From assembly GCF_000020225.1 (NCBI RefSeq), contig NC_010655.1, forward strand, positions 1,650,001-1,682,000: a stretch of DNA of 32,000 bases. The letters run 5' to 3'. Below, piece after piece: positions 9,734-30,653 of the stretch. The notes under the pieces were generated by a model. It did no database searches. It saw only the letters and a list, made by a program, of their open reading frames with translations, and was not told the DNA's origin. Positions within the stretch are counted from its first letter, which is position 1, and each line of letters starts with the position of its first letter. Both the position numbers and the translations under genes were made by a program. Origin of the DNA: Akkermansia muciniphila ATCC BAA-835 (GTDB lineage: Bacteria; Verrucomicrobiota; Verrucomicrobiia; Verrucomicrobiales; Akkermansiaceae).

Positions 9734-9754
9734 GCGGATTTATTATCCGCGTTC
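9734..9754. repeat. site 1A: GCGGA-TTTATTA-TCCGC plus GTTC; left arm of an inverted pair
   Basis: Positions 9735-9754 (CGGATTTATTATCCGCGTTC) are the exact reverse complement of 9990-10009. The site is itself a palindrome with an asymmetric centre. Confidence 0.85.
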
Positions 9755-9989
9755 TCCTCTGTTGATGCTATATTTTCCAAAAAATCATTTTTTTAATAAA
9801 AATGATTGCCTGCGATGGTGCTGAAAGCAGGAAATCTTGAGAAACAAGGTTTTTCCTGTCTTTTGGGAAGCAGGAAAACATGGACAGATTCCTCTTTCCG
9901 TGTTTGGAATTCCATGTTTTCAACGGGAACCGGATGTCCCTCGTGTATCAAATTTTTTCTTAAATTATTCTTCTTCAATATTAAGGCTT

Positions 9990-10010
9990 GAACGCGGATA
10001 ATAAATCCGT
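9990..10010. repeat. site 1B: GAAC plus GCGGA-TAATAAA-TCCGT; right arm of an inverted pair
   Basis: This is a perfect 20-nt inverted copy of 9735-9754. It ends 15 nt before the acyltransferase ATG at 10025. Confidence 0.85.
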
Positions 10011-10024
10011 AGAAATGTTTCTCC

Positions 10025-11212
10025 ATGAGTTTGCCGCTGGCTGATGATGAAGAGAAAGGAAAGCGTTTTTCCTGTGGTTGTCCGGAATATATTTCCCCGT
10101 CCCGGAATTATGGAATAGATGCCTTGCGCATTGTCGCCATGATGATGGTTTTAATTCTTCATCTTTTGGCTTCCATTGATGTTTTGTCTTTGGAGAACCA
10201 TGGGTCCGCTTCCTATAATGTCGGGTGGCTGCTGGAGATTGCCGCTTATTGCGGTGTGAATTGTTATGCGTTAATTACAGGATATGTGTGCTGCGACGGA
10301 ACGTTCAGGTATGAACGTGTGGTTTCCTTATGGTTTCAGGTTGTTTTTTATACATGGGGCAGTTTGCTGCTGGCTCTGTTGTTTTTCCCCCAGGAGGTTC
10401 AGTTGAGTAATATTCTGCATTCCCTTTTTCCGGTTTTATCCGGCCAATATTGGTATGTGACGGCGTATGTGGGGCTGTTTTTCTTCATTCCGTTTCTTAA
10501 CGCCCTGGGGAACAGGCTGACCAAATTACAGTTCCAGTATCTTCTGGTTACCGTTTTCATGCTGTTTTCCATTATTCCCACCCTGCTTCACACGGATGTG
10601 TTCCCGGTGGAAGAAGGGTATAGCATCTGGTGGCTGGGCATCCTTTACATGCTGGGGATGTATGTTAAAAAGCATGGCTTGCTGACGGGAATGAAAACGC
10701 GTCCGTTATGGATGTTTTATGCCGGATGCGTATGTTTTGCCTGGGTTTTCAAGATGGTTCTGAATGTGGTGTCTCCATACCTGATTGGGCAGATCAAGGG
10801 CGGTGGAATGTTTATTCGCTATAATTCTCCTTTTATTGTAGGGCCGGCGGTTGCCCTGTTGCTGATTTTTTCCCGGATGCATTTTTCATCCCGAAGGGCT
10901 GTCTCCTGTATTTCATGGCTGGCGGCAGCGTCGTTCAGCGTTTATGTGCTGCATTGTAATGCTTTGATAGGAAAATGGTTTTTGTGGGATGTCTTTGAGT
11001 GGACAGCGTCTTCTTCCTCAGCCCTGATGGTTGTGAACGTGTTGGCAATAGCCGCCGTGGTTTATGCCGGATGCGCCTTGGTGGACTCCGTGCGGCGTTA
11101 TTTATTTAAGCTCATGAACGTGGAAAGGGGCGCCCGGGCGGTGACGGGCTTTTGCGGAAAGCTGGGGCATGCGTTCCGGAAGATGTGCCGCCGGATAGAT
11201 TCGCATCCCTAA
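10025..11212 (+). CDS. acyltransferase family 3 (OafA/YrhL-like) integral membrane O-acyltransferase
   Basis: The product is 395 aa and polytopic. The N-terminal segment NYGIDALRIVAMMMVLILH matches the acyltransferase-3 pattern (D-x-L-R ... H). GC content is clearly lower than in the flanking genes. Hand counts gave 21/60 and 29/60 G+C on two lines of this gene, against 38/60 on one line of the neighbouring SDR gene. Confidence 0.8.
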   Translation: MSLPLADDEEKGKRFSCGCPEYISPSRNYGIDALRIVAMMMVLILHLLASIDVLSLENHGSASYNVGWLLEIAAYCGVNCYALITGYVCCDGTFRYERVVSLWFQVVFYTWGSLLLALLFFPQEVQLSNILHSLFPVLSGQYWYVTAYVGLFFFIPFLNALGNRLTKLQFQYLLVTVFMLFSIIPTLLHTDVFPVEEGYSIWWLGILYMLGMYVKKHGLLTGMKTRPLWMFYAGCVCFAWVFKMVLNVVSPYLIGQIKGGGMFIRYNSPFIVGPAVALLLIFSRMHFSSRRAVSCISWLAAASFSVYVLHCNALIGKWFLWDVFEWTASSSSALMVVNVLAIAAVVYAGCALVDSVRRYLFKLMNVERGARAVTGFCGKLGHAFRKMCRRIDSHP

Positions 11213-13871: not shown

Positions 13872-15035
13872 ATGAAGAATCCTGAACAGTTTTTGTCAGA
13901 GTTGAAGTCTGCGGGGCTGCTGCGCGTCCTGCGGGATGTGGAATGCCTGCCCGGAGGAATGGCCCGTCTGGCGGATGGCCGGGAAGCGGTCAATCTGGCA
14001 AGCAACGATTATCTGGGGCTGGCCCACCATCCGTCCCTGGCGGAGGCTTTTTCCCGTGCGGTGCGGGATGAAGGGGTCGGAGCCATGGCATCCCGCCTGG
14101 TGACGGGGACGCGGCGGGAACATTCCTGTCTGGAAGAGGCCCTGGCCGCTTTGAAGGGGACTGAAGCGGCGGTCAGTTTTTCCTCCGGTTATGCTACCTC
14201 CCTGGGAGTGATTGCTTCTATTGCGGACCGGGAGGATACGGTGCTGATGGATAAGTTGTCCCATGCCAGCCTGATTGACGGGGCGCGTTTGTCCGGGGCG
14301 CGTTTGTCTACGTTCCTGCATAACGATATGGAGTCATTAAGGAAAAAACTGCAGCATTTGCGGGACGCGAATCCTTCCGGCGGGATTCTGGTAGTGACCG
14401 AATCCGTTTTCAGCATGGATGGAGACCGTGCCCCCCTTCGGGAAATTGTGCGTCTGAAGGATGAATTCGGCGCGTTGCTGCTGGTGGATGAAGCTCACGG
14501 ATTCGGTGTGCTGGGAGAACACGGGGCCGGACTGGCGGAAGAGCTGGGTGTTTCCTCCCGGATAGATTTTCAAATGGGGACTTTGAGCAAGGCTGCCGGG
14601 GTAAGTGGTGGATATGTGGCCTGTTCCCGCGCCTGGGCGGATGTAATGGTTAATTCCGCCCGGTCCCTGATTTATTCCACGGCTCCGCCTCCCGCTTTGG
14701 CCGCCGCCGCCCTGGCCGCGGTGGAAGTGATCCGCAGCGGGGAGGGAAAGGAATTGCGCCGCCGTGTTTCCGTGCTGGCAAACAGTTTGTCCGCCGCACT
14801 GGGGATGCCGGGAAGGCCTCTTTCTTCCATTTTCCCTGTTGTGGTGGGAGAAAACGATGCTGCCCTGGCTGCGGCGGATGCCCTGCTGGAACAGGGCTTT
14901 CTGGCTCCCGCCATCCGTTATCCTACGGTTCCCCGCGGAACGGCCCGGTTGCGCATTACGGTAACGGCTGCGCATGAATCCGGGCAGGTCACGCGGCTGG
15001 GGACGGCGTTGAAGGAGCTGCTGCATGGGAAGTAA
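13872..15035 (+). CDS. bioF: 8-amino-7-oxononanoate synthase (alpha-oxoamine synthase family)
   Basis: SNDYLGL, HASLIDG, SVFSMDGD and VDEAHGFGVLG are present, along with the PLP-lysine context GTLSKAAGVSGGYV. IYSTAPPPALAAAALAAVEVIRSGEG and IRYPTVPRGTARLRITVTAAHE closely parallel E. coli BioF as I recall it. The gene starts 23 nt after the KAS gene. Confidence 0.87.
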   Translation: MKNPEQFLSELKSAGLLRVLRDVECLPGGMARLADGREAVNLASNDYLGLAHHPSLAEAFSRAVRDEGVGAMASRLVTGTRREHSCLEEALAALKGTEAAVSFSSGYATSLGVIASIADREDTVLMDKLSHASLIDGARLSGARLSTFLHNDMESLRKKLQHLRDANPSGGILVVTESVFSMDGDRAPLREIVRLKDEFGALLLVDEAHGFGVLGEHGAGLAEELGVSSRIDFQMGTLSKAAGVSGGYVACSRAWADVMVNSARSLIYSTAPPPALAAAALAAVEVIRSGEGKELRRRVSVLANSLSAALGMPGRPLSSIFPVVVGENDAALAAADALLEQGFLAPAIRYPTVPRGTARLRITVTAAHESGQVTRLGTALKELLHGK

Positions 15036-15170
15036 CGCAGGCGTTGTTTTTGGTTCTCCGCATTGGAGCCGGTTCCTGTTTTTATGCGGGGCCTGCCGGA
15101 AATGGGATTATCCTCATTGATGCCGCCATAAAAAAGGAAGAAGGATATCTGATGCCTGGCGGAACGGAAT

Positions 15171-15184
15171 GACATCCGGATGTC
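15171..15184. promoter_or_regulatory. perfect 14-bp palindrome GACATCCGGATGTC upstream of the 15288 gene
   Basis: The palindrome was read directly from the sequence. It shares the CCGGATGTC core with sites at 9929 and 20852. It lies about 105 nt upstream of the ATG at 15288. Confidence 0.3.
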
Positions 15185-15287
15185 CTGAATAGCAGAGCTT
15201 GCATCTTGACAGGGAAGTTTTCTTCCAGTAAGGGGAAAGAATGAAGGTTCCCAAAGGAATTTTCACTGAACCCTATAAAATAACGTC

Positions 15288-15743
15288 ATGATGAATACTT
15301 CTGATTCTTCTTCCCCTTCGTCCTGCTGCAGCGGTTCTCCTTCCTGCACGGCCGCTCTTGTTCTCGGCATTATCGCCCTGGTATTGGCATTGATCGGTTT
15401 TTTCCCGTGCCTGGGCTGGATTACTCTGATTCCTGCGGGGCTGCTTGCCATTATTGCACTGATCATGAGCATTGTGGCTGTCAGTAAAGGTTCGCCCAAA
15501 GGGGCTCTTGTTGTTGCCATTATCGCGTTGGCCCTGTCCGCCGTTGCGGGAATTGTCCAGGCATGGATGGCCAGCGCTACCGTGACTTACATGGAACAGC
15601 ACCAGGATTATGTGGAAAAGAAGGCTCTGGAAATTCAAAAGGAGCTTCGGCAGATGGAGCAGGAAAACAGGGAGTCATTGAGGCGGTTCGGGGAGGCGGA
15701 TGGAATGTCCCCTGCGGATGGAACAGGCTCCCAGGATTTGTAG
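15288..15743 (+). CDS. small membrane protein, DUF4190-like N-terminal half plus charged coiled-coil-like tail
   Basis: The N-terminus is Ser/Cys-rich. Three hydrophobic spans follow (LVLGIIALVLALIGFF, LIPAGLLAIIALIMSIVAV, ALVVAIIALALSAVAGIV). The tail is KKALEIQKELRQMEQENRESLRRF. The family call is from memory of the pattern. Confidence 0.55.
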   Translation: MMNTSDSSSPSSCCSGSPSCTAALVLGIIALVLALIGFFPCLGWITLIPAGLLAIIALIMSIVAVSKGSPKGALVVAIIALALSAVAGIVQAWMASATVTYMEQHQDYVEKKALEIQKELRQMEQENRESLRRFGEADGMSPADGTGSQDL

Positions 15744-15771
15744 TTCCTGAACCTTTTTAGGAAGATCGGCG

Positions 15772-16149
15772 ATGAATGGCGGGCGCTCTTCATGGCGTTC
15801 ATGCCGTGATAGCTGGGTAGTCAGGAAAGTATGGCTGCCTGTATGGGCTGTTCTGTCCTGCCTGTTGCTGGCGCCCTCCCTCATGGCTCTGGCAATTAGC
15901 CCTGACAGGATGAATTCTCTGGCGGTTTCTGTTGCCGTGCCGCATCGTGAATGCCCGTTGTGCGGCATGACGCGAGGGTATGCGGAAATGGCCCGTGGGG
16001 ATATACGCGCTGCCTGGGGATGGAACCGAGGAGCTCCGGTCTTGTTTATGGCAGGACTGCTCAATGGAGGGGCTGCCGCGGTTTATTTGGCATGGTGCTG
16101 GCGGAGAAGGGCGGGAAGCCGGGAAAAGGAAAATAGTTCTCCCGCGTAG
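15772..16149 (+). CDS. DUF2752-like small membrane protein
   Basis: The CPLCGMTRG motif, typical of DUF2752 (CPxCGxTR), lies between hydrophobic spans. The product is 125 aa. The gene starts 28 nt after the previous gene. Confidence 0.6.
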   Translation: MNGGRSSWRSCRDSWVVRKVWLPVWAVLSCLLLAPSLMALAISPDRMNSLAVSVAVPHRECPLCGMTRGYAEMARGDIRAAWGWNRGAPVLFMAGLLNGGAAAVYLAWCWRRRAGSREKENSSPA

Positions 16150-16646
16150 CATGCCGCAAGGGGGGAACCGGCATCCCCTGTCCCCGGTAAATGACACGGC
16201 GGAAGTTTTGAAGCAGGGCCTGGGAAGTTCTTCTGCCTCCTGTTTATTCCCTGTAACGGGGCTGGCGCCTGGTGGGGGGGGACGGAATGATGTTGAGTTT
16301 TTATTGAATGAATTCCATGCCAAATTCCTCGTAGTGCCGAAGATGAAGTTCCCCTGCCCAGGTTGAGCGTTTTGCCGGAGGGAGCTGCGTTGTTCCTGAA
16401 AAGGAGAGGGGTATGCGGCGCCGGTGTTTCATGCCTTAGGATTATTTTTTGTCAGGAAGGGGAATAGCTTTTCTGGGAATGGCCGGTATTGCCGTTCATG
16501 AAAGGAGTGTTCGTGGTGTGGAATATTTTGATTTTTCTTTATTCCGGTATTTTGTTGATAATGTTGTTTTCTATTAAGTTGTGTAATTTTCTAACATTTT
16601 TATTCTAGGCCCGGTTGATTTTATATATATAGTTTTTGGATATTGT

Positions 16647-17210
16647 ATGAATATTTGCATGTCCATCTATAGATCAATCGAATTGCGGAAGAATACATCC
16701 GGAAGTTATAAGGTCCGGCTGACTATCGACCGGGGAAGCAAGTTCTGCGGCGCCAGGAAATCTCTCGGTCTCGGCACCCATCGGGAGGATTGCGCCCTAA
16801 GACGTGCCTACCTGATGCGATGCCTGCTGTTTCATATGGGATGGTTTCCCGGCGGAAAGATTGCCGTCAGGAATTCAGCCGAATGCGGTATCAAGGATGT
16901 GGTTTGGGACAGCATGGAGTGTTCGGAGGATTCCGGAATGTTCAAGCTTGCCGGCAGGGGAGGCCGCATGGCTGCGGATGAGACCATGGCCATCTGGTTC
17001 CAGACGAATGAAGACGGGAAGGTCCAGTGCCTCCGTCTGCTCATTTCCGGATGGAGGAAGCATGACCGGGCGGATGATTTGAGGGTGCTGATTCAGGGAA
17101 TGCGGCATTGCGCCTCGGAACAGCGCCAGCATCCCTGCCGGATTTTGAATATTGAAATCGGCGCCGGCTCTTTCGCGGCATCCCGGGATGAATGTGTGCT
17201 GAAAGGATAG
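16647..17210 (+). CDS. hypothetical protein (187 aa)
   Basis: This is an ATG ORF directly downstream of a very AT-rich stretch (about 16500-16646). The N-terminal segment SIELRKNTSGSYKVRLTIDRGSKFCGARKSLGLGT loosely resembles integrase arm-type/AP2-like DNA-binding N-domains. No recombinase catalytic motifs are present. Confidence 0.4.
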   Translation: MNICMSIYRSIELRKNTSGSYKVRLTIDRGSKFCGARKSLGLGTHREDCALRRAYLMRCLLFHMGWFPGGKIAVRNSAECGIKDVVWDSMECSEDSGMFKLAGRGGRMAADETMAIWFQTNEDGKVQCLRLLISGWRKHDRADDLRVLIQGMRHCASEQRQHPCRILNIEIGAGSFAASRDECVLKG

Positions 17211-17219
17211 GAAAACGGA

Positions 17220-17447
17220 TTGTCCCAGATACCAGTTTATCCTGGTTTTATTCTGAAGACGCCACATTCCGGTTGGGAAATCCGGCTGTATGTCCGGCAT
17301 GCCTGGCCCGGAGTTTTTTTGGCCGTCATTGACGACGGGAAGGTTGTCCGTATTCCGGGCGAGGCGAAGGCGCGGGAGGAATGGTGCGCTGCCTGCCGGG
17401 AAAGGGAGTTTTGTTTTTCCTGCATGAAAAAACCCCGGATGGAATGA
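17220..17447 (+). CDS. possible small protein (75 aa, TTG start)
   Basis: This ORF has only a TTG start and no recognisable motif. It ends inside the terminator hairpin. Coding status is doubtful. Confidence 0.2.
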   Translation: MSQIPVYPGFILKTPHSGWEIRLYVRHAWPGVFLAVIDDGKVVRIPGEAKAREEWCAACREREFCFSCMKKPRME

Positions 17448-17468
17448 TTGCCATCCGGGGGTTTGTTT
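17433..17468. terminator. bidirectional intrinsic terminator between the 17220 ORF and aspS
   Basis: A perfect 10-bp stem, CCCCGGATGG / CCATCCGGGG, encloses an 8-nt loop. It is preceded by AAAAAA and followed by GTTTGTTT. It sits between convergent genes. Confidence 0.8.
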
Positions 17469-17479
17469 AAGGGATCCGG

Positions 17480-19273
17480 CTATTTTTTAGCGGGCAGTTT
17501 CACCTGAATGTGAATGTCGCGCAGCTGACGGTCTTCCGCGGCGGCGGGGGAGTCGCTCATCAGATCCGCTCCCCGGTTGTTTTTCGGGAATGCGATGACT
17601 TCGCGGATGGATTCCGCGTTGCAAATCATCATGACCAGGCGGTCGAGGCCCAGCGCAAGGCCTCCGTGGGGTGGAGCGCCGAAGCTGAAAGCGTCCAGAA
17701 TGTGGCCGAATTGTTCGCGGGCCTGTTCTTCCGTGATGCCGAGCGCCTTGAACATGGCGGACTGCAGGTCGCGTTCATGGATGCGGATGGAACCGCCTCC
17801 CAGCTCCGTGCCGTTGAGCACCACATCGTAGGCCTGCGCGCGAAGGTCTGCGGAGAGTTCCCCGCTGAGCAGTTTTTGTTCGTCTTCCTTGACGGGGCGG
17901 GTAAAGGGGTGGTGGATGGCGACCCAGCGCTGCTCTTCCTCATCCCAGCCCACCAGCGGGAATTCAATAACCCACAGGAAGTCGCGTTCCTTGTTGTCCT
18001 TGAGCAGTTCCATGAATTCGGCGCATTGCAGGCGCACGCGGCCCAGGATATCGCAGGAGGGTTCCCACGGGCCGGCGGCAAAGAGAACGAGGTCTCCTGT
18101 TTCGATGTCCAGGGCTTCCGTGAGTTTTTGTTTTTCTTCGTCGGAAAGGAATTTGGAGATGGGGCTTCTCCAGTCTTCCTCGCGCACCTTGATGTAGGCC
18201 AGGCCTTTGGCTCCGGCTTCCACGGCAGTTTTCGTCAGGGCGTCAATCTGGCCAACGGAGGCGGAACCGAATCCCTTGGCGTTGATGGCCTTGACCACGC
18301 CGCCGTTGCTTACGGCTGAGGCGAATACCTTGAAGCCGCTGTTTTCAAAGATGGAGGAGACGTCCGTTAGCTTCATGCCGAAGCGGCGTTCCGGCTTGTC
18401 GGAACCGTACTGATCCATTGCTTCCTTCCAGGTCATGCGGGGGAAGGGGGTGGGAATGTCCACGCCCAGGGATTCCTTGTACACGCGTTTGAGCAGGCCT
18501 TCCACCAGGTTGTAGATGTCTTCCGGCGTGATGAAGGAAGCTTCAATGTCCACCTGGGTGAATTCCGGCTGGCGGTCCGCGCGCAGGTCTTCGTCACGGA
18601 AGCAGCGGGCAATTTGGAAATAGCGTTCCATGCCGGCTACCATGAGCAGCTGCTTGTATTGCTGCGGGGCCTGGGGCAGCGCGTAGAATTTGCCGGGCGC
18701 CAGGCGGGAGGGCACCAGGAAGTCCCGTGCGCCTTCCGGCGTGGATTTGGAGAGGATGGGCGTCTCAATTTCCAGAAAGCCGTGCTCGTCCAGATAGTCG
18801 CGCGTGGATTTGGTGACGCGGTGGCGGATCTGCATGTTGCGGGCCATGGTCGGGCGGCGCAGGTCCAGAAAGCGGTATTTGAGGCGCAGGTCTTCGTTGG
18901 AGAGGGCCCGATCCAGCTGGAAGGGGAGCACGTCAGCCTTGTTGATGACGTTCAGGGTGTCTGCGGAGACTTCGATTTCCCCGGTGGGGAGGTCCGCATT
19001 GGTCGTGTCCACCGTATCCGTTTTCAGGCGGGCGGCCACGGTGCCGGAAATCTGGATCATGTCTTCGGAGCGGAGCTGCTGGGAGGCTTTCGCCACATCC
19101 TGATTGACTTCCGGGTGAAAGACTACCTGCGTGATGCCGGAGCGGTCGCGCAAGTCGATAAATATGACGCCGCCATGGTCCCGGACGGAATCTACCCAGC
19201 CGATGAGGGTGGTCGGCTTGCCGATGTTCGCAGCGCGCAATTCGCTGCAGGTATGAGTGCGGTATGAGTTCAT
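17480..19273 (-). CDS. aspS: aspartate--tRNA ligase
   Basis: I place the start at the ATG at 19273 (MNSYRTHTCSELR). FRDEDLRADRQPEFTQVD (motif 2), GGGSIRIH and GLDRLVM (motif 3 region) are present. The 13-codon extension in the ORF track would overlap the end of hisS. Confidence 0.96.
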   Translation of the reverse strand: MNSYRTHTCSELRAANIGKPTTLIGWVDSVRDHGGVIFIDLRDRSGITQVVFHPEVNQDVAKASQQLRSEDMIQISGTVAARLKTDTVDTTNADLPTGEIEVSADTLNVINKADVLPFQLDRALSNEDLRLKYRFLDLRRPTMARNMQIRHRVTKSTRDYLDEHGFLEIETPILSKSTPEGARDFLVPSRLAPGKFYALPQAPQQYKQLLMVAGMERYFQIARCFRDEDLRADRQPEFTQVDIEASFITPEDIYNLVEGLLKRVYKESLGVDIPTPFPRMTWKEAMDQYGSDKPERRFGMKLTDVSSIFENSGFKVFASAVSNGGVVKAINAKGFGSASVGQIDALTKTAVEAGAKGLAYIKVREEDWRSPISKFLSDEEKQKLTEALDIETGDLVLFAAGPWEPSCDILGRVRLQCAEFMELLKDNKERDFLWVIEFPLVGWDEEEQRWVAIHHPFTRPVKEDEQKLLSGELSADLRAQAYDVVLNGTELGGGSIRIHERDLQSAMFKALGITEEQAREQFGHILDAFSFGAPPHGGLALGLDRLVMMICNAESIREVIAFPKNNRGADLMSDSPAAAEDRQLRDIHIQVKLPAKK

Positions 19274-27824: not shown

Positions 27825-27841
27825 GCGGATTAGGAATCCGA
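27825..27841. repeat. site 2A: GCGGA-TTAGGAA-TCCGA; left arm of an inverted pair
   Basis: This is the exact reverse complement of 27997-28013 (17 nt). It lies 39 nt upstream of the ATG at 27786 of the Sel1-repeat gene on the minus strand. Confidence 0.85.
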
Positions 27842-27996
27842 ATGAAGTGTTCAAAGATGTTTCTGTGAAAAGCAAGTATATTACAATCAATAATTTATAT
27901 TTTGTTCCAACAAATTTATTCTGTTGATGGTTGTATCCGGGGAAATGATGGATGATTTTGGAGAAATGCATTTGGTATGAAAAACTGATATTGACG

Positions 27997-28013
27997 TCGG
28001 ATTCCTAATCCGC
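27997..28013. repeat. site 2B: TCGGA-TTCCTAA-TCCGC; right arm of an inverted pair
   Basis: This is the exact reverse complement of 27825-27841. The two arms bracket 155 bp of AT-rich DNA. Confidence 0.85.
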
Positions 28014-28234
28014 AGTGTTTAAAATAGGTTGAAAAATGTTGGTTAATCTTTTTGTTATCAGCATATTAAAAATATGCATCCTGTTTTTCTGAAGTGAAAA
28101 AGGCGGAAAGGCGCGTCTGTTGTCCCGCCTCATTCTTCCGTTTTTTTTACATGGGAATCGTTATTATTTTTATTAAAAGTCTTTCTGAATATTCATTCAT
28201 TTCCGTTTTGTGTATCCCATATGCATGCATTGTG

Positions 28235-28251
28235 GCGGATTTCAAATCCGC
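28235..28251. repeat. site 3A: GCGGA-TTTCAAA-TCCGC; left arm of an inverted pair
   Basis: The reverse complement of 28404-28420 matches it at 16 of 17 positions. The inner flank CATGTCA corresponds to CAGTCA on the partner. Confidence 0.8.
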
Positions 28252-28403
28252 ATGTCAGCGAAAAAAGGAATTGGTGCTTCCTTATTGATTTTATTATCAA
28301 TGGATAAAATCAATATTGGGGATTGTTTCTTTCAGGATGCGTTGTGATTTTTTTCTTTCTCTATACGATGAAAGTCCTTTTTTCTCAAAAAATTTGATTG
28401 ACT

Positions 28404-28420
28404 GCGGATTTGAAATGCGC
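28404..28420. repeat. site 3B: GCGGA-TTTGAAA-TGCGC; right arm of an inverted pair
   Basis: This is an inverted copy of 28235-28251 with one arm mismatch. The pair brackets 152 bp of AT-rich DNA. It lies 265 nt upstream of the ATG at 28686. Confidence 0.8.
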
Positions 28421-28685
28421 AGATGAATACGCATGGATTGAGAGCGTTTGATATTCAATGGGCTGTTTCTTTTTTTGCAGTAATACGCAGTTTTGGAAGA
28501 TGTCCTGATAAAAAAAGAGGGCTCATGATACGTACCCGTACGGGAAAAACGGGAAGGCCGTGGCGGAATTGCTCCGGAGCGGCTGTTGATTCTGCCGGGG
28601 CTGCGAGCATAACCGGATGTTTGTGACGGTTTCGTTTCCGGCCGCATCTTGTTTGAGGAAGCCATTCCGCTCATGGTACCGGTAC

Positions 28686-30653
28686 ATGAGAATTGATGTG
28701 GTAACGGATACGTATGAACCTGATGTAAATGGAGTGGCCCTGACGCTGGGGCGTCTGGTCGGCGGCCTCCGGATGCGCGGGCATCTGGTGCATGTGATGA
28801 GGGCTTCTGAACGGAACGACTCTTTCGACCCTGGGGAGACGGCTATGCCGTCCCTTCCCCTCCCCATGTACCATGAGGTGAAGATAGGGCTGCCTTCTGC
28901 AGACAGGTTCCGCGCCAGATGGATGAAAAAAAGGCCGGATGTGGTATACGTGGCTACGGAAAGCCCCATGGGAGCGTCTGCCGTGAAGGCCGCCCGTACG
29001 CTGGAGGTTCCCGTGGTGATGGGATTCCATACCAATTTCCACCAGTATATGAAGGATTACCATTTCTCCAGACTGGAAACGGCCGCCGTGAATTACCTGC
29101 GCAAACTCCACAACAGGGCAGGGATGACAGTGGTTCCCACGGAGGAAATGCGCCGTACGCTGGAGGGGATGGGGTTTGAACGCCTTTCCGTCATGGGGCG
29201 CGGAGTGGATGCCGTCCTGTTTGATCCCGCCAGGAGGGATGCTTCCCTGCGCCAGTCATGGGGCGTCTGGCGGGATGAAGTGGTATTTGGCGTCGTGGGG
29301 CGTCTGGCGCGGGAAAAGAACCTGGTGACGGCCCTGGGGCTGTACACGCGCTTGCAGAGGGAGTTTCCGGATTGCGGCATGAAAATGGTGGTGGTAGGGG
29401 ACGGCCCCATGATGAACAGCCTGCGCAGTGAGTTTCCTGATGCCGTTTTTTGCGGAATGCGCCGTGGGGAAGACCTGGCGCGCCATTATGCCGCCATGGA
29501 CGTTTTGCTGTTCGCCAGTGAGACGGAAACTTTCGGGAACGTTTTGCTGGAAGGCATGGCCAGCGGTTTGGCTACGGTCAGCTACCGGTATGCCGCTTCC
29601 GCGGATGTGGTGCTGGACGGCATCAACGGCCTTCAGGCGGAGAAAGGGGATGAAGAGGGGTTTTATTCCGCCATGCGCCGTCTGCTGGAAGACGGGGAGA
29701 TGATTCGGAGGCTTGGGAAACAGGCCCGTAGGACGGTGAATTCCAGAACTTGGGATTCCATCCATGACAGGTTTGAAGAACTGCTGGCTTCCGTGACTCG
29801 GGAGGAAAACGGGACCGGCTGCGCCCGTCCCCCGCGGGATGCCGTGCTGGAATGCCGCACGGTTTTTTTGTCGGACCTTCATCTGGGAACGAAAGACTGC
29901 AAGGCGGACGAATGCCGGAAGTTTCTGAAACATGTCCGGGCTGGAAAAATTGTGCTGGTGGGGGATATTGTGGATGCTTGGGCTTTGTCCCGCGGCAGCC
30001 GCTGGCGGCGGAGGCATACGCGCTTTGTCCGCACCTTGTTGAAAAAGATGGAACAGGAGGATGTGGAAGTCCTGTACCTGCGCGGAAATCACGATGATAT
30101 TCTGGAAAAATTCCTGCCTTTTCATCTGGGCGGTTTGAAAATTGCCAGGGAGTACGTGCACCAGGCTGCGGATGGAAGACGCTACCTGTGCGTGCATGGG
30201 GACGGTTTTGACGCCATTTCCACCAATCACCGGTGGCTGGCGATGCTCGGCTCTCTGGGTTATGACGTTTTGCTGATGGTCAACCGGTTTTACAACAAAT
30301 ACCGCGCCTGGCGGGGCAGGGAATATCATTCCGTTTCCCGCGCCATCAAGGGCCGCGTGAAATCCGCCGTCAATTTTATTGGAAAATATGAGGAACAGCT
30401 TCAACGCCTGGCGGTAAAGAGGCAGTGTGACGGCATCATCGCCGGGCATGTGCATCATCCGGCGGATACCATGGTGGGAAAGGTGAGGTATCTGAATTGC
30501 GGGGACTGGGTGGAAACCATGAGCGCAGTGCTGGAATACGGCGACGGCCGTATGGAAACGGTGCTTTACAAGGATTTTATGAAGCGCCTGGCATATGGCA
30601 AATGCGGAACCATGGAGGACGCGGAAACTTCTCCCGGCACGGGGGATTCATGA
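28686..30653 (+). CDS. fusion protein: N-terminal GT4-type glycosyltransferase plus C-terminal PlcP/LpxH-like calcineurin-type metallophosphoesterase
   Basis: I place the start at the ATG at 28686 (MRIDVVTDTYEPDVNGVALT, a typical GT4 N-terminus). The GT-B C-lobe has FASETETFGNVLLEGMASG (E-x7-E). From about residue 400 the metallophosphoesterase motifs appear: FLSDLHLG, VGDIVD, RGNHDD, VHGDGFD and AGHVHHP. The GNHD motif is not the GNRD typical of bona fide LpxH. Confidence 0.8.
   Translation: MRIDVVTDTYEPDVNGVALTLGRLVGGLRMRGHLVHVMRASERNDSFDPGETAMPSLPLPMYHEVKIGLPSADRFRARWMKKRPDVVYVATESPMGASAVKAARTLEVPVVMGFHTNFHQYMKDYHFSRLETAAVNYLRKLHNRAGMTVVPTEEMRRTLEGMGFERLSVMGRGVDAVLFDPARRDASLRQSWGVWRDEVVFGVVGRLAREKNLVTALGLYTRLQREFPDCGMKMVVVGDGPMMNSLRSEFPDAVFCGMRRGEDLARHYAAMDVLLFASETETFGNVLLEGMASGLATVSYRYAASADVVLDGINGLQAEKGDEEGFYSAMRRLLEDGEMIRRLGKQARRTVNSRTWDSIHDRFEELLASVTREENGTGCARPPRDAVLECRTVFLSDLHLGTKDCKADECRKFLKHVRAGKIVLVGDIVDAWALSRGSRWRRRHTRFVRTLLKKMEQEDVEVLYLRGNHDDILEKFLPFHLGGLKIAREYVHQAADGRRYLCVHGDGFDAISTNHRWLAMLGSLGYDVLLMVNRFYNKYRAWRGREYHSVSRAIKGRVKSAVNFIGKYEEQLQRLAVKRQCDGIIAGHVHHPADTMVGKVRYLNCGDWVETMSAVLEYGDGRMETVLYKDFMKRLAYGKCGTMEDAETSPGTGDS

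What the first reader, a model, noticed from the sequence alone, without database searches (positions are those of the whole stretch)
28686..30653. GT4 glycosyltransferase fused to a PlcP/LpxH-like metallophosphoesterase: candidate single-polypeptide phospholipid-to-glycolipid remodelling enzyme
The N-terminal ~390 aa have GT4/GT-B hallmarks (MRIDVVTDTYEPDVNGV; E-x7-E in ETETFGNVLLEGMASG). The C-terminal ~270 aa carry the full calcineurin-type motif set (DLHLG, GDIVD, GNHDD, HGD, GHVHH) and an inserted cap region like the LpxH family. Genuine LpxH has GNRD at the third motif, whereas this protein has GNHD.

In Sinorhizobium and in marine heterotrophs, an LpxH-family phospholipase C (PlcP) releases diacylglycerol from phospholipids under phosphate stress. 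A neighbouring GT4 enzyme (Agt) then glycosylates the diacylglycerol. In those organisms the two activities are encoded by adjacent genes. Here they appear as one polypeptide, downstream of a putative phase-variable control region.

I infer substrate channelling from membrane phospholipid to glycosyl-diacylglycerol. The alternative is modification of a lipid A precursor.
Basis: partly seen in the sequence, partly recalled or inferred. Interest (0 to 1): 0.65.

Follow-up and report, generated by a model that had tools for sequence, protein, structure and literature searches.

The report
Fused glycolipid synthase–phospholipase C in Akkermansia
An Akkermansia gut bacterium encodes, as one protein, the two enzymes that other bacteria use in turn to convert membrane phospholipids into sugar lipids, and the gene lies behind DNA switches of a type known to flip in this genus; nobody appears to have studied it.

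Summary
ORF 28686-30653 (+) encodes a 655-aa protein: a GT4 glycosyltransferase (aa 1-375), a short linker, then a calcineurin-type phosphoesterase with an LpxH-like cap (aa 391-627).

The C-half is 44% and 39% identical to the characterised phospholipase C PlcP of P. aeruginosa (PA3219) and S. meliloti (SMc00171). It matches true LpxH only weakly (27 bits; GNHD, not GNRD). The N-half is 43% identical to P. aeruginosa Agt2 (PA0842, glucuronosyl-diacylglycerol synthase) and 32% to Agt1. Both catalytic residue sets are conserved in at least 95% of 122 fused homologues from Akkermansiaceae. A Limisphaerales genome carries the same genes unfused, in the same order.

Enzyme activity, substrate channelling and control by phosphate are unproven. 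No proteobacterial-type Pho box precedes the gene. Instead, the 860-bp upstream gap holds two elements with the published Akkermansia inverton motif (CGGATT..AATCCG). One was found flipped in a metagenome contig.

I found no paper describing the fusion or its probable A. muciniphila orthologue (Amuc_1405, inferred by synteny). It is a new variant of a known pathway, of moderate interest.

The parts
28686..30653 (+). Coding sequence of the 655-aa Agt-PlcP fusion protein (stop codon included)
   Evidence: ORF. Start confirmed by gene calls in relatives and by alignment to Agt2 from residue 1.
28686..29810 (+). N-terminal GT4 (retaining GT-B) glycosyltransferase domain, aa 1-375, Agt2-like
   Evidence: Pfam GT4 and Glycos_transf_1. 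43% identity over 390 aa to P. aeruginosa Agt2/PA0842 and 32% to Agt1/PA3218. Foldseek top hits are BshA, MshA and PimA. G16, H115, R206, K211, E281 and E289 are conserved in at least 95% of 122 fusions.
29811..29855 (+). Inter-domain linker, aa 376-390
   Evidence: Part of the poorly conserved stretch aa 326-400. pLDDT drops at 377-379.
29856..30566 (+). C-terminal PlcP/LpxH2-type metallophosphoesterase domain, aa 391-627
   Evidence: 44% identity to P. aeruginosa PlcP and 39% to S. meliloti PlcP. PlcP HMM 368 bits against 56 for LpxH. PlcP-specific motifs present. Metal ligands D397, H399, D427, N468, H469, H504, H588 and H590 are conserved in at least 98% of fusions.
30204..30419 (+). Helical cap insertion of the phosphoesterase (aa 507-578), the presumed lipid- and membrane-binding lid
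   Evidence: Three helices inserted between the HGD and GHxH motifs, at low pLDDT. Carries the PlcP-specific S-x-S...K-x-VK-x-AV-x-F motif that LpxH lacks. Aligns with the LpxH cap in Foldseek.
28235..28420 (.). Inverton-like element B: IRs 28235-28252 and 28403-28420 around 150 nt, 265 nt upstream of the start codon
   Evidence: 18-nt IRs, 94% complementary. Published Akkermansia motif CGGATT..AATCCG (PMC13343947). Conserved in position across Akkermansia species. The centre trinucleotides co-vary in three states: TCA/TGA, ATA/TAT and CTA/TAG. No flipped copy was found.
27825..28013 (.). Inverton A: IRs 27825-27841 and 27997-28013 around 155 nt, 39 nt from the start of the divergent Sel1 gene
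   Evidence: 17-nt IRs, 100% complementary. Found cleanly inverted, IR to IR, in metagenome contig L020.
26665..27786 (-). Divergently transcribed Sel1-repeat protein gene, a conserved neighbour that shares the inverton-bearing intergenic region
   Evidence: Pfam Sel1. Called as 373 aa in relatives. Conserved synteny hypE - Sel1(-) - fusion - dnaK.

Best explanation
The gene encodes a bifunctional, membrane-peripheral cytoplasmic enzyme that carries out both steps of the known PlcP-Agt lipid-renovation pathway.

**Step 1 (inferred from family membership).** The C-terminal PlcP domain is a di-metal phosphoesterase with a lipid-binding cap. It cleaves the phospho-headgroup from a glycerophospholipid (PE or PG in Akkermansia) and leaves diacylglycerol in the membrane.

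**Step 2 (inferred).** The N-terminal GT4 domain is of the Agt2 type. It transfers a hexose or hexuronic acid from a UDP-sugar onto that diacylglycerol. The product is glucuronosyl- and/or glucosyl-diacylglycerol; the sugar cannot be read from the sequence.

**What the fusion does.** It guarantees 1:1 co-expression and places the diacylglycerol producer next to the consumer. Channelling is plausible but unshown.

**Origin (inferred).** The fusion probably arose in the Akkermansiaceae lineage by loss of the stop codon in an agt-plcP operon like the one still split in Limisphaerales.

**Regulation (partly shown).** In Akkermansia, expression is likely tied to genus-specific invertible DNA elements in the upstream gap rather than to a PhoB box. 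The lipid swap may therefore be phase-variable.

**Shown versus inferred.** Shown: the domain architecture, family membership, conservation of both active sites, the split orthologues, the inverton motif, and one inversion event. Inferred: the activities, substrates, products, channelling and promoter logic.
For: **C-half.**
- Matches characterised PlcPs at 44% identity (E 2e-70) and 39% (E 5e-65).
- The loci are identified as PA3219-PA3218-cyaB and as the gene next to sinR/sinI (PMC8528852). The protein sizes, 270 and 281 aa, match 'Pa/Sm LpxH2' in PMC3087551.
- PlcP-family HMM scores: window 368 bits, P. aeruginosa 411, S. meliloti 400, E. coli LpxH 56.
- Shares PlcP-specific motifs.

**N-half.**
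- Matches Agt2/PA0842 at 43% over 390 aa, E 3e-104. Agt2 makes GADG and Agt1 makes MGDG when expressed in E. coli (PMC8528852).
- The residues equivalent to those targeted by site-directed mutagenesis in the SAR11 Agt (PMC8231724) are conserved.

**Both halves.**
- Both active sites are conserved in at least 95% of 122 fusions.
- In six genera, the best matches of the two halves are adjacent genes. Compare the coordinates for Pseudomonas, Roseomonas, Sphingomonas, Methylobacterium and Ralstonia.
- A Limisphaerales MAG has separate GT, PlcP and GT ORFs in a row.
- Agt2-like genes sit next to other diacylglycerol-generating enzymes: plcH-plcR in P. aeruginosa and PAP2 phosphatases in Ralstonia and Acinetobacter.
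- Fold matches are GT4 for the N-half and LpxH for the C-half.

**Regulation.**
- The inverton motif and geometry match published Akkermansia invertons (PMC13343947; PMC11892184).
- Inverton A was found flipped.
- The centres of pair B co-vary.
Against: - No biochemical or lipidomic data exist for this protein. I found no report of glycosyl-diacylglycerols in Akkermansia.
- No proteobacterial-type Pho box lies within 500 nt upstream in any verrucomicrobial locus. The same scan finds the boxes of P. aeruginosa and S. meliloti plcP.
- The domain order (GT then PlcP) is the reverse of the usual plcP-agt operon order.
- The best NCBIfam hit of the N-half is the GlcNAc-phosphatidylglycerol synthase model. 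The score is far below cut-off, and Agt2 itself has the same profile.
- The model's pTM of 0.60 gives no confident inter-domain geometry, so nothing supports channelling.
- Inverton B, the one nearer the gene, was never seen flipped in about 20 assemblies and one metagenome scan. No promoter has been mapped.
Confidence: 0.65

Rival explanations
1. The glycosyltransferase half does not act on diacylglycerol. It acts on another membrane acceptor, for example phosphatidylglycerol as GpgS does (giving GlcNAc-PG), or on a polyprenyl-linked glycan. The PlcP half would then have a separate or trimming role, so the protein is not a phospholipid-to-glycosyl-DAG converter.
For: The top NCBIfam model for the N-half is GlcN_PG_synth at 149 bits. 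GpgS is a GT4 of P. aeruginosa (PMC12713373). GT4 acceptor specificity cannot be read reliably from 43% identity.
Against: - The score of 149 is far below the model's cut-off of 480.
- Agt2, shown by expression in E. coli to make GADG, gives the same profile: 135 and 96 bits on the same two models.
- The N-half is 43% identical to Agt2 along its full length.
- No gpgD- or gpgF-like deacetylase or flippase is nearby.
- Covalent linkage to a diacylglycerol-producing enzyme, and repeated linkage of Agt2-like genes to diacylglycerol-generating enzymes, favour a diacylglycerol acceptor.
Confidence: 0.15
2. The C-half is the organism's UDP-2,3-diacylglucosamine hydrolase, meaning LpxH function in lipid A synthesis, fused to an envelope glycosyltransferase.
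For: - Databases label this family 'UDP-2,3-diacylglucosamine diphosphatase', and JGI labels the fusion 'LpxH/glycosyltransferase'.
- LpxH is the nearest solved fold.
- I could not search the whole genome for lpxH, lpxI or lpxG.
Against: - NCBIfam LpxH models give 48 bits against a cut-off of 134, and 35 against 190. Real PlcPs score the same way.
- Block 3 reads GNHD, not GNRD (PMC3087551).
- P. aeruginosa lpxH2 (= plcP) does not complement E. coli lpxH, as cited in PMC3087551.
- The two Verrucomicrobia in that study have LpxI and no LpxH.
- The gene sits behind invertible elements and is interrupted upstream by a mobile element in one strain. That is odd for an essential lipid A gene.
Confidence: 0.04
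3. One half is catalytically dead, so the protein is effectively monofunctional. For example, a glycosyltransferase might use a degenerate phosphoesterase domain only as a membrane anchor or regulator.
For: Fused domains sometimes decay. The cap region is modelled with low confidence.
Against: All eight metal-binding residues and the GT4 donor-binding and catalytic residues are conserved in 95-100% of 122 fusions spanning about 50% sequence divergence. The C-domain is on the whole at least as conserved as the N-domain.
Confidence: 0.04

Closest known systems
PlcP-Agt lipid-renovation pathway (S. meliloti SMc00171; Phaeobacter MED193; SAR11 HTCC7211; P. aeruginosa PA3219 with PA3218/Agt1 and PA0842/Agt2)
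   Same: The same two enzyme families are involved: an LpxH2-type phospholipase C and a GT4 diacylglycerol glycosyltransferase. Identities to characterised members are 39-44%. The C-half matches as well as the characterised PlcPs match each other. The two genes are genetically linked in many bacteria.
   Different: - Here the two enzymes are one polypeptide, with the GT at the N-terminus. This is the reverse of the common plcP-then-agt operon order.
- The GT is closest to Agt2, which in P. aeruginosa is not next to plcP.
- No Pho box was detected.
- The host is an anaerobic gut mucin degrader, not a phosphate-starved marine or soil organism.
- Genus-specific invertons lie upstream.
LpxH (UDP-2,3-diacylglucosamine diphosphatase of lipid A synthesis)
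   Same: Same metallophosphoesterase fold with an inserted helical cap. It is the nearest solved structure: the top 23 Foldseek hits are LpxH.
   Different: - Only about 20% identity.
- Below both NCBIfam LpxH cut-offs.
- GNHD instead of GNRD, and GHVH instead of GHTH.
- Carries PlcP-specific cap and C-terminal motifs (YLNxGDWVE).
GpgS (GlcNAc-phosphatidylglycerol synthase, P. aeruginosa gpgSDF)
   Same: A GT4 lipid glycosyltransferase, and the best NCBIfam model hit for the N-half.
   Different: The score of 149 is far below the cut-off of 480. Agt2 scores alike on this model. No gpgD or gpgF partners are present.
Akkermansia invertons (IR motif CGGATT..AATCCG; Jiang et al. 2019 as cited in PMC13343947; 'group 138' in PMC11892184; cps1 capsule switch)
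   Same: Same IR motif and same geometry: 17-18-nt IRs about 150-160 nt apart, intergenic, upstream of envelope-related genes. One of the two elements here was observed in both orientations.
   Different: This locus (Sel1 gene / Agt-PlcP) is not mentioned in the main text of any inverton paper I read. The supplementary inverton tables were not available to me. Two elements sit in tandem in some species and only one in others. The promoter direction and the ON/OFF states are unknown.
OlsF (natural fusion of the two acyltransferases of ornithine-lipid synthesis; mentioned in PMC9239053)
   Same: A precedent for two consecutive enzymes of a phosphorus-free membrane-lipid pathway fused into one bifunctional protein in some lineages and split in others.
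   Different: The enzyme families and the product are unrelated.

Membership tests
PlcP / LpxH2 phospholipase C family | Five-block metallophosphoesterase signature with GNH(D/E) in block 3 (His, not the Arg of LpxH) | tested here: met
   D397-x-H399, GD427, GNH469D, H504, GH588-x-H590. Conserved in at least 98% of 122 fusions. The criterion comes from PMC3087551.
PlcP / LpxH2 phospholipase C family | Closer in sequence to experimentally characterised PlcPs than to LpxH | tested here: met
   44% and 39% identity to P. aeruginosa and S. meliloti PlcP, against 27 bits to LpxH PDB chains. PlcP HMM 368 bits against 56 for E. coli LpxH. Caveat: the HMM's training set was chosen by similarity to this domain.
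PlcP / LpxH2 phospholipase C family | Family-specific cap and C-terminal motifs (S-x-S..K-x-VK-x-AV-x-F; Y-L/I-N-x-GDWVE) | tested here: met
   Alignment with P. aeruginosa, S. meliloti and P. distasonis PlcP-like proteins and E. coli LpxH.
PlcP / LpxH2 phospholipase C family | Phospholipase C activity releasing diacylglycerol from PC, PE or PG | not testable with these tools
   Needs an enzyme assay or lipidomics.
PlcP-Agt lipid-renovation system | Induction by phosphate starvation through a Pho box upstream | tested here: not met
   No match of at least 10/14 to CTGTCAT-N4-CTGTCAT within 500 nt upstream in Akkermansia, Luteolibacter, Haloferula or Limisphaerales loci. The P. aeruginosa and S. 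meliloti plcP controls do score. The verrucomicrobial PhoB motif is unknown, so this does not exclude phosphate control.
Agt-type GT4 diacylglycerol glycosyltransferase | GT4 retaining GT-B fold with donor-binding and catalytic residues (G16, H115, R206, K211, E281-x7-E289) | tested here: met
   Pfam, Foldseek and conservation. These are the equivalents of the residues targeted by site-directed mutagenesis in the SAR11 Agt (PMC8231724).
Agt-type GT4 diacylglycerol glycosyltransferase | Best characterised homologue is an Agt | tested here: met
   43% over 390 aa to Agt2/PA0842 and 32% over 319 aa to Agt1/PA3218. An unrelated GT next to the P. distasonis plcP-like gene gives no match.
Agt-type GT4 diacylglycerol glycosyltransferase | Transfers Glc or GlcA from a UDP-sugar to diacylglycerol | not testable with these tools
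   Needs heterologous expression with lipid MS.
LpxH (bona fide) | Reaches the NCBIfam equivalog cut-off and has GNRD in block 3 | tested here: not met
   48.1 bits against 134 and 34.7 against 190. Block 3 is GNHD.
GpgS (GlcNAc-PG synthase) | Reaches the NF053787 equivalog cut-off and has gpgD/gpgF neighbours | tested here: not met
   149 bits against 480. The neighbours are a Sel1 gene and dnaK.
Akkermansia inverton (CGGATT..AATCCG type) | Pair of inverted repeats with the motif, bracketing a short intergenic segment | tested here: met
   Pairs A and B. The motif is enriched in the window: 6 matches against 0.09 expected. The motif is as given in PMC13343947.
Akkermansia inverton (CGGATT..AATCCG type) | Both orientations occur in nature | tested here: inconclusive
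   Element A was found flipped in L020. Element B was never found flipped, but its IR centres co-vary in three states.

The most novel reading that the evidence does not exclude
Akkermansia uses a single fused enzyme, switched by DNA inversion rather than by phosphate sensing, to convert part of its phospholipid membrane into glucuronosyl- or glucosyl-diacylglycerol in a subpopulation of cells. This would be a phase-variable membrane-lipid composition, not just a phase-variable capsule or protein. It could serve as bet-hedging against host cationic antimicrobial peptides or phages, and as a variable source of host-visible glycolipids.
Probability: 0.2. Interest if true: 0.75.

Novelty: new variant of a known kind. 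Interest (0 to 1): 0.5.

Why it matters
**Mechanistic test case.** The PlcP-Agt route is the main known way heterotrophic bacteria replace phospholipids with glycolipids. In P. aeruginosa the products alter resistance to polymyxin (PMC8528852). A natural single-chain version would allow a clean test of whether diacylglycerol is handed directly from the lipase to the glycosyltransferase.

**Gut biology.** The fusion occurs in Akkermansia, a gut commensal whose membrane lipids are reported to be immunomodulatory (ornithine lipids, PMC9981464). It points to an unstudied gene, probably Amuc_1405, that could make an unreported class of Akkermansia lipids.

**Regulation.** The position behind genus-specific invertons suggests that bulk membrane-lipid chemistry might be phase-variable. 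This is directly testable with existing transposon libraries, lipidomics and inverton-calling software.

Tried and rejected
- **LpxH identity.** Rejected on the NCBIfam cut-offs, the GNHD motif, the HMM scores and the literature on LpxH2 (PMC3087551).
- **GpgS-like reading of the N-half.** Considered because of the top NCBIfam hit. Down-weighted because Agt2 has the same sub-threshold profile.
- **Pho box.** Searched for in the window and in eight related loci. None was found, although the controls were detected.
- **L016 as a fusion.** I first took the Limisphaerales locus L016 for a fusion, from the joined tblastn match. ORF listing shows three separate genes.
- **Flipped inverton B.** Looked for in about 20 assemblies and with a validated flipped-junction pattern in the metagenome collection. 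None was found; only element A was flipped.
- **Sigma-70 promoter across the repeats.** I tried to read one, with the -35 TTGAC inside the element, the IR as a 17-nt spacer and the -10 outside. It is plausible for the third inverton at 9988-10016 and for flipped A facing the Sel1 gene. It is not convincing for B facing the fusion gene, so I left it as speculation.
- **Literature.** Searches for a reported PlcP-glycosyltransferase fusion, for Akkermansia glycosyl-diacylglycerols and for Amuc_1404/1405 found nothing.
- **Inverton catalogue.** The supplementary tables of the inverton catalogue were not held as text.
- **Rfam and tRNA.** Scans of the window found nothing.
- **Strict monophyly of the fused C-domains.** Not supported in a rough NJ tree, because one standalone protein and two fragments nest inside. 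The enlarged clade gets 72/100.
Full report
**1. The observation**

The window has an uninterrupted ORF at 28617..30653 on the + strand. Gene callers in related contigs start the protein at the ATG at 28686 (MRIDVV..., 655 aa). The ATG at 28617 is not conserved in a 72%-identical relative. Pfam places GT4 N- and C-domains at aa 14-175 and 189-349, and a calcineurin-like phosphoesterase at aa 391-592, all above the gathering scores.

The fusion is not an assembly artefact. Full-length homologues occur in many independent assemblies. They run at 78-97% identity in unnamed gut-type clusters, one with 1,958 member sequences, and at about 55% in Luteolibacter and Haloferula. A scan of species-representative genomes names the closest ones as Akkermansia (95%, 93%, 90%). 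The window therefore comes from an Akkermansia species.

**2. The C-terminal half**

A tblastn search against the plasmid collection hit records that are really chromosomes or chromosome fragments.
- One is the S. meliloti gene next to sinR and sinI, which is SMc00171.
- Another is the P. aeruginosa gene followed by a GT4 gene and an adenylate cyclase gene. This is PA3219-PA3218-cyaB, the arrangement described by Jones et al. (PMC8528852).

The fusion's C-half is 44% identical to the P. aeruginosa PlcP (E 2e-70) and 39% to the S. meliloti PlcP (E 5e-65). Those two characterised enzymes share 47% with each other. That agrees with the 46% quoted in PMC8528852.

True LpxH matches only weakly:
- 27 bits to PDB chains.
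- 48 and 35 bits on the two NCBIfam LpxH models, whose cut-offs are 134 and 190. The real PlcPs score the same way on these models.
- An HMM built from 129 standalone family representatives plus the two PlcPs scores the window domain at 368 bits and E. coli LpxH at 56. The training set was picked by similarity to the query, so the informative point is that the characterised PlcPs sit inside this family and LpxH sits outside it.

The alignment shows shared PlcP-specific motifs that LpxH lacks: SDxHLG(T/S), GDI(V/I)D(A/G)W, GNHD, a cap motif S-x-S..K-x-VK-x-AV-x-F, and YLNxGDWVE. Opiyo et al. (PMC3087551) defined this paralogue as 'LpxH2'. Their P. aeruginosa protein is 270 aa and their S. meliloti protein 281 aa, the sizes found here. 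They noted His instead of Arg in block 3, and they cite the finding that P. aeruginosa lpxH2 does not complement E. coli lpxH. Their table shows LpxI and no LpxH in the two Verrucomicrobia they examined.

The AlphaFold model of the domain (pLDDT 79, pTM 0.74) has a helical cap insertion. Its first 23 PDB neighbours are all LpxH, followed by a gap to other metallophosphoesterases. No PlcP structure has been solved.

**3. The N-terminal half**

It is 32% identical to Agt1/PA3218. Its best P. aeruginosa match is a different GT4, which lies right after cerN-plcH-plcR. That gene is PA0842 = Agt2. The match is 43% identity over 390 aa, E 3e-104. Expressed in E. coli, Agt2 makes glucuronosyl-diacylglycerol and Agt1 makes monoglucosyl-diacylglycerol (PMC8528852).

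The top NCBIfam hits of the N-half are GlcNAc-PG synthase (149 bits, cut-off 480) and the Mgs glucosyl-DAG synthase (105 bits, cut-off 400). Agt2 itself gives the same profile, 135 and 96 bits. These hits therefore show only that all of them are GT4 lipid glycosyltransferases. Fold search gives retaining GT4 enzymes: BshA, MshA and PimA.

**4. Are both halves functional and functionally coupled?**

In 122 full-length fusions, the eight metal ligands of the phosphoesterase are conserved in 98-100%. The GT4 residues G16, H115, R206, K211, E281 and E289 are conserved in 95-99%. These are the equivalents of residues targeted by site-directed mutagenesis in the SAR11 Agt (PMC8231724). The stretch around the domain junction (aa 326-400) is among the least conserved parts.

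Several lines link the two halves:
- The best matches of the two halves are adjacent genes in Pseudomonas, Roseomonas, Sphingomonas, Methylobacterium and Ralstonia (coordinates).
- Sebastián et al. report agt downstream of plcP in more than 25% of marine isolates (PMC4796936).
- A Limisphaerales MAG has three separate ORFs in a row: GT, PlcP, GT, separated by gaps of 44 and 14 nt. The GT-then-PlcP order of the fusion thus exists unfused in another order of the same phylum.
- An Akkermansiaceae MAG has a standalone PlcP.
- Agt2-like genes in Ralstonia and Acinetobacter are followed by a PAP2 phosphatase, another possible diacylglycerol supplier.

Among 1.84 billion cluster representatives the C-domain family has 614 members at E below 1e-30. 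Only five of the best 150 are fused. The named ones are Akkermansia, annotated merely as 'glycosyltransferase'. In a rough NJ tree the fused domains, apart from one outlier, group with the Akkermansiaceae standalone gene at 72/100. The Limisphaerales split gene lies next to them.

**5. Mechanism**

The best-supported reading is a bifunctional enzyme. The PlcP domain removes the phospho-headgroup from PE or PG, and the Agt2-like domain glycosylates the resulting diacylglycerol.
- The protein has no signal peptide or transmembrane segment visible in the sequence or the model. It would therefore work at the cytoplasmic face of the inner membrane, with the amphipathic cap as the likely lipid entry. 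This is inference.
- The full-length model (pLDDT 81, pTM 0.60) does not fix the relative position of the domains. Channelling remains a hypothesis.
- The sugar (GlcA or Glc) cannot be decided from sequence.

**6. Regulation and surroundings**

Synteny in Akkermansia is hypB-F-C-D-E, a Sel1-repeat gene on the minus strand, a gap of 400-900 bp, the fusion gene, then dnaK, groES and groEL. Amuc_1406-1408 are DnaK, GroES and GroEL (PMC11480725). The A. muciniphila type-strain orthologue is therefore probably Amuc_1405. This is inferred from synteny and not verified. No paper in the library mentions Amuc_1405 or Amuc_1404.

No Pho box of the proteobacterial type is present, although the same scan detects those of P. 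aeruginosa and S. meliloti plcP.

The AT-rich gap contains two inverted-repeat pairs:
- Pair A: 27825-41 and 27997-28013, 100% complementary.
- Pair B: 28235-52 and 28403-20, 94% complementary.

Each pair brackets about 150 nt. The repeat core CGGATT-N3-AATCCG is the motif published for Akkermansia invertons (PMC13343947, citing Jiang et al. 2019; 'group 138' of PMC11892184). A published example has 17-nt repeats 157 nt apart. The motif occurs six times in the window against 0.09 expected by chance.

The sites are conserved in position across Akkermansia species; some species have one element and others two. The centre of pair B takes three states (TCA/TGA, ATA/TAT and CTA/TAG) that always stay reverse-complementary. 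This is what recombination sites that must pair would show.

I built a flipped-junction pattern and validated it on simulated inversions. It found one metagenome contig in which element A is cleanly inverted from repeat to repeat. Element B was never seen flipped. A conserved TTGAC(G/T) box abuts the fusion-proximal repeat in every element. Which orientation is ON, and for which of the two divergent genes, is unknown.

**7. Comparison with what is known, and novelty**

Both domains pass the sequence-based membership tests for PlcP/LpxH2 and for Agt-type GT4. They fail the tests for LpxH and GpgS. The pathway is known. What differs is:
- the covalent fusion;
- the GT-first order;
- the Agt2-type partner;
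- the host, an anaerobic gut mucin degrader;
- the replacement of Pho-box control by genus-specific invertible elements.

I found no description of the fusion in the searchable literature. This is a new variant of a known kind. Fusions of consecutive enzymes are common, and the function is predicted, not shown. The value lies in a clean system for testing diacylglycerol hand-over, and in a concrete, unstudied candidate for glycolipid synthesis, possibly with phase-variable membrane chemistry, in Akkermansia.

Noticed in passing
window 27825-28013 and 28235-28420: Two tandem elements with the published Akkermansia inverton repeat motif (CGGATT..AATCCG) lie between the divergent Sel1 gene and the fusion gene. 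Element A was found inverted in a metagenome contig. The repeat centres of element B co-vary in three states across strains. A conserved TTGAC(G/T) box abuts the fusion-proximal repeat.
   Followed up: partly
window 9735-9749 and 9995-10009: A third pair of the same motif, exact reverse complements 245 nt apart, sits just upstream of an Acyl_transf_3 family gene (10025-11212). The sequence TTGAAC, 17-nt repeat, TAGAAAT ends 15 nt before the ATG. It is probably another inverton controlling an envelope acyltransferase.
   Followed up: partly
L020 1-5193 (metagenome contig VOFJ01003888.1); breakpoint corresponds to window ~28114: In the strain with flipped element A, homology to the window stops between elements A and B. 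It is replaced by mobile-element-like genes: an N6/N4 DNA methylase, an HTH repressor-like ORF and DUF3102. The breakpoint falls inside a GC-rich hairpin (window ~28103-28131) that looks like a minus-strand terminator.
   Followed up: partly
L016 8562-12003 (Limisphaerales MAG): An unfused agt-like, plcP, agt-like operon: three same-strand ORFs separated by 44 and 14 nt. This is the likely ancestral state of the fusion. The joined tblastn match had first suggested a fusion.
   Followed up: yes
L018 4001-5687 (Ralstonia) and L019 3854-5728 (Acinetobacter baumannii): Agt2-like GT4 genes are immediately followed by a PAP2-family phosphatase gene. This suggests a second, PlcP-independent pairing of a diacylglycerol supplier with this glycosyltransferase type.
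   Followed up: no
L003 4977-6898 (Parabacteroides distasonis): A gut Bacteroidales genome has a PlcP-like gene (44% identical to the fusion's C-half, annotated as LpxH). It overlaps by 4 nt a downstream glycosyltransferase that is unrelated to Agt. This may be a different glycolipid branch fed by the same lipase.
   Followed up: no
L001 (CP090106.1), L002 (NZ_CP137508.1), L017 (NZ_CP131792.1): Records in the plasmid collection labelled as plasmids carry core chromosomal loci. Examples are a 3.7-Mb 'pSymB' with sinI/sinR/SMc00171, and P. aeruginosa 'plasmids' with plcP-agt1-cyaB or cerN-plcH-plcR-agt2. They are mislabelled or chimeric records, which happened to be useful here.
   Followed up: no
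L004 16608-18839 (A. muciniphila-type contig): A 743-aa PHO4-family phosphate transporter gene lies about 4.6 kb downstream of the fusion, after dnaK-groES-groEL, and is followed by exopolysaccharide-type genes. The link to the fusion is probably coincidental.
   Followed up: no
window 15035-17480: A lower-GC stretch (51-53%) with only short ORFs of up to 187 aa. None has a Pfam match, and there is no tRNA or Rfam hit.
   Followed up: partly
L023 6191-7876 (Haloferula helveola): In Haloferula a 561-aa protein with a weak Metallophos match sits directly upstream of the fusion on the same strand. In Luteolibacter luteus a PstS-like PBP_like_2 gene lies 2 kb downstream. These are faint hints of a phosphorus-scavenging context in free-living relatives.
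   Followed up: no
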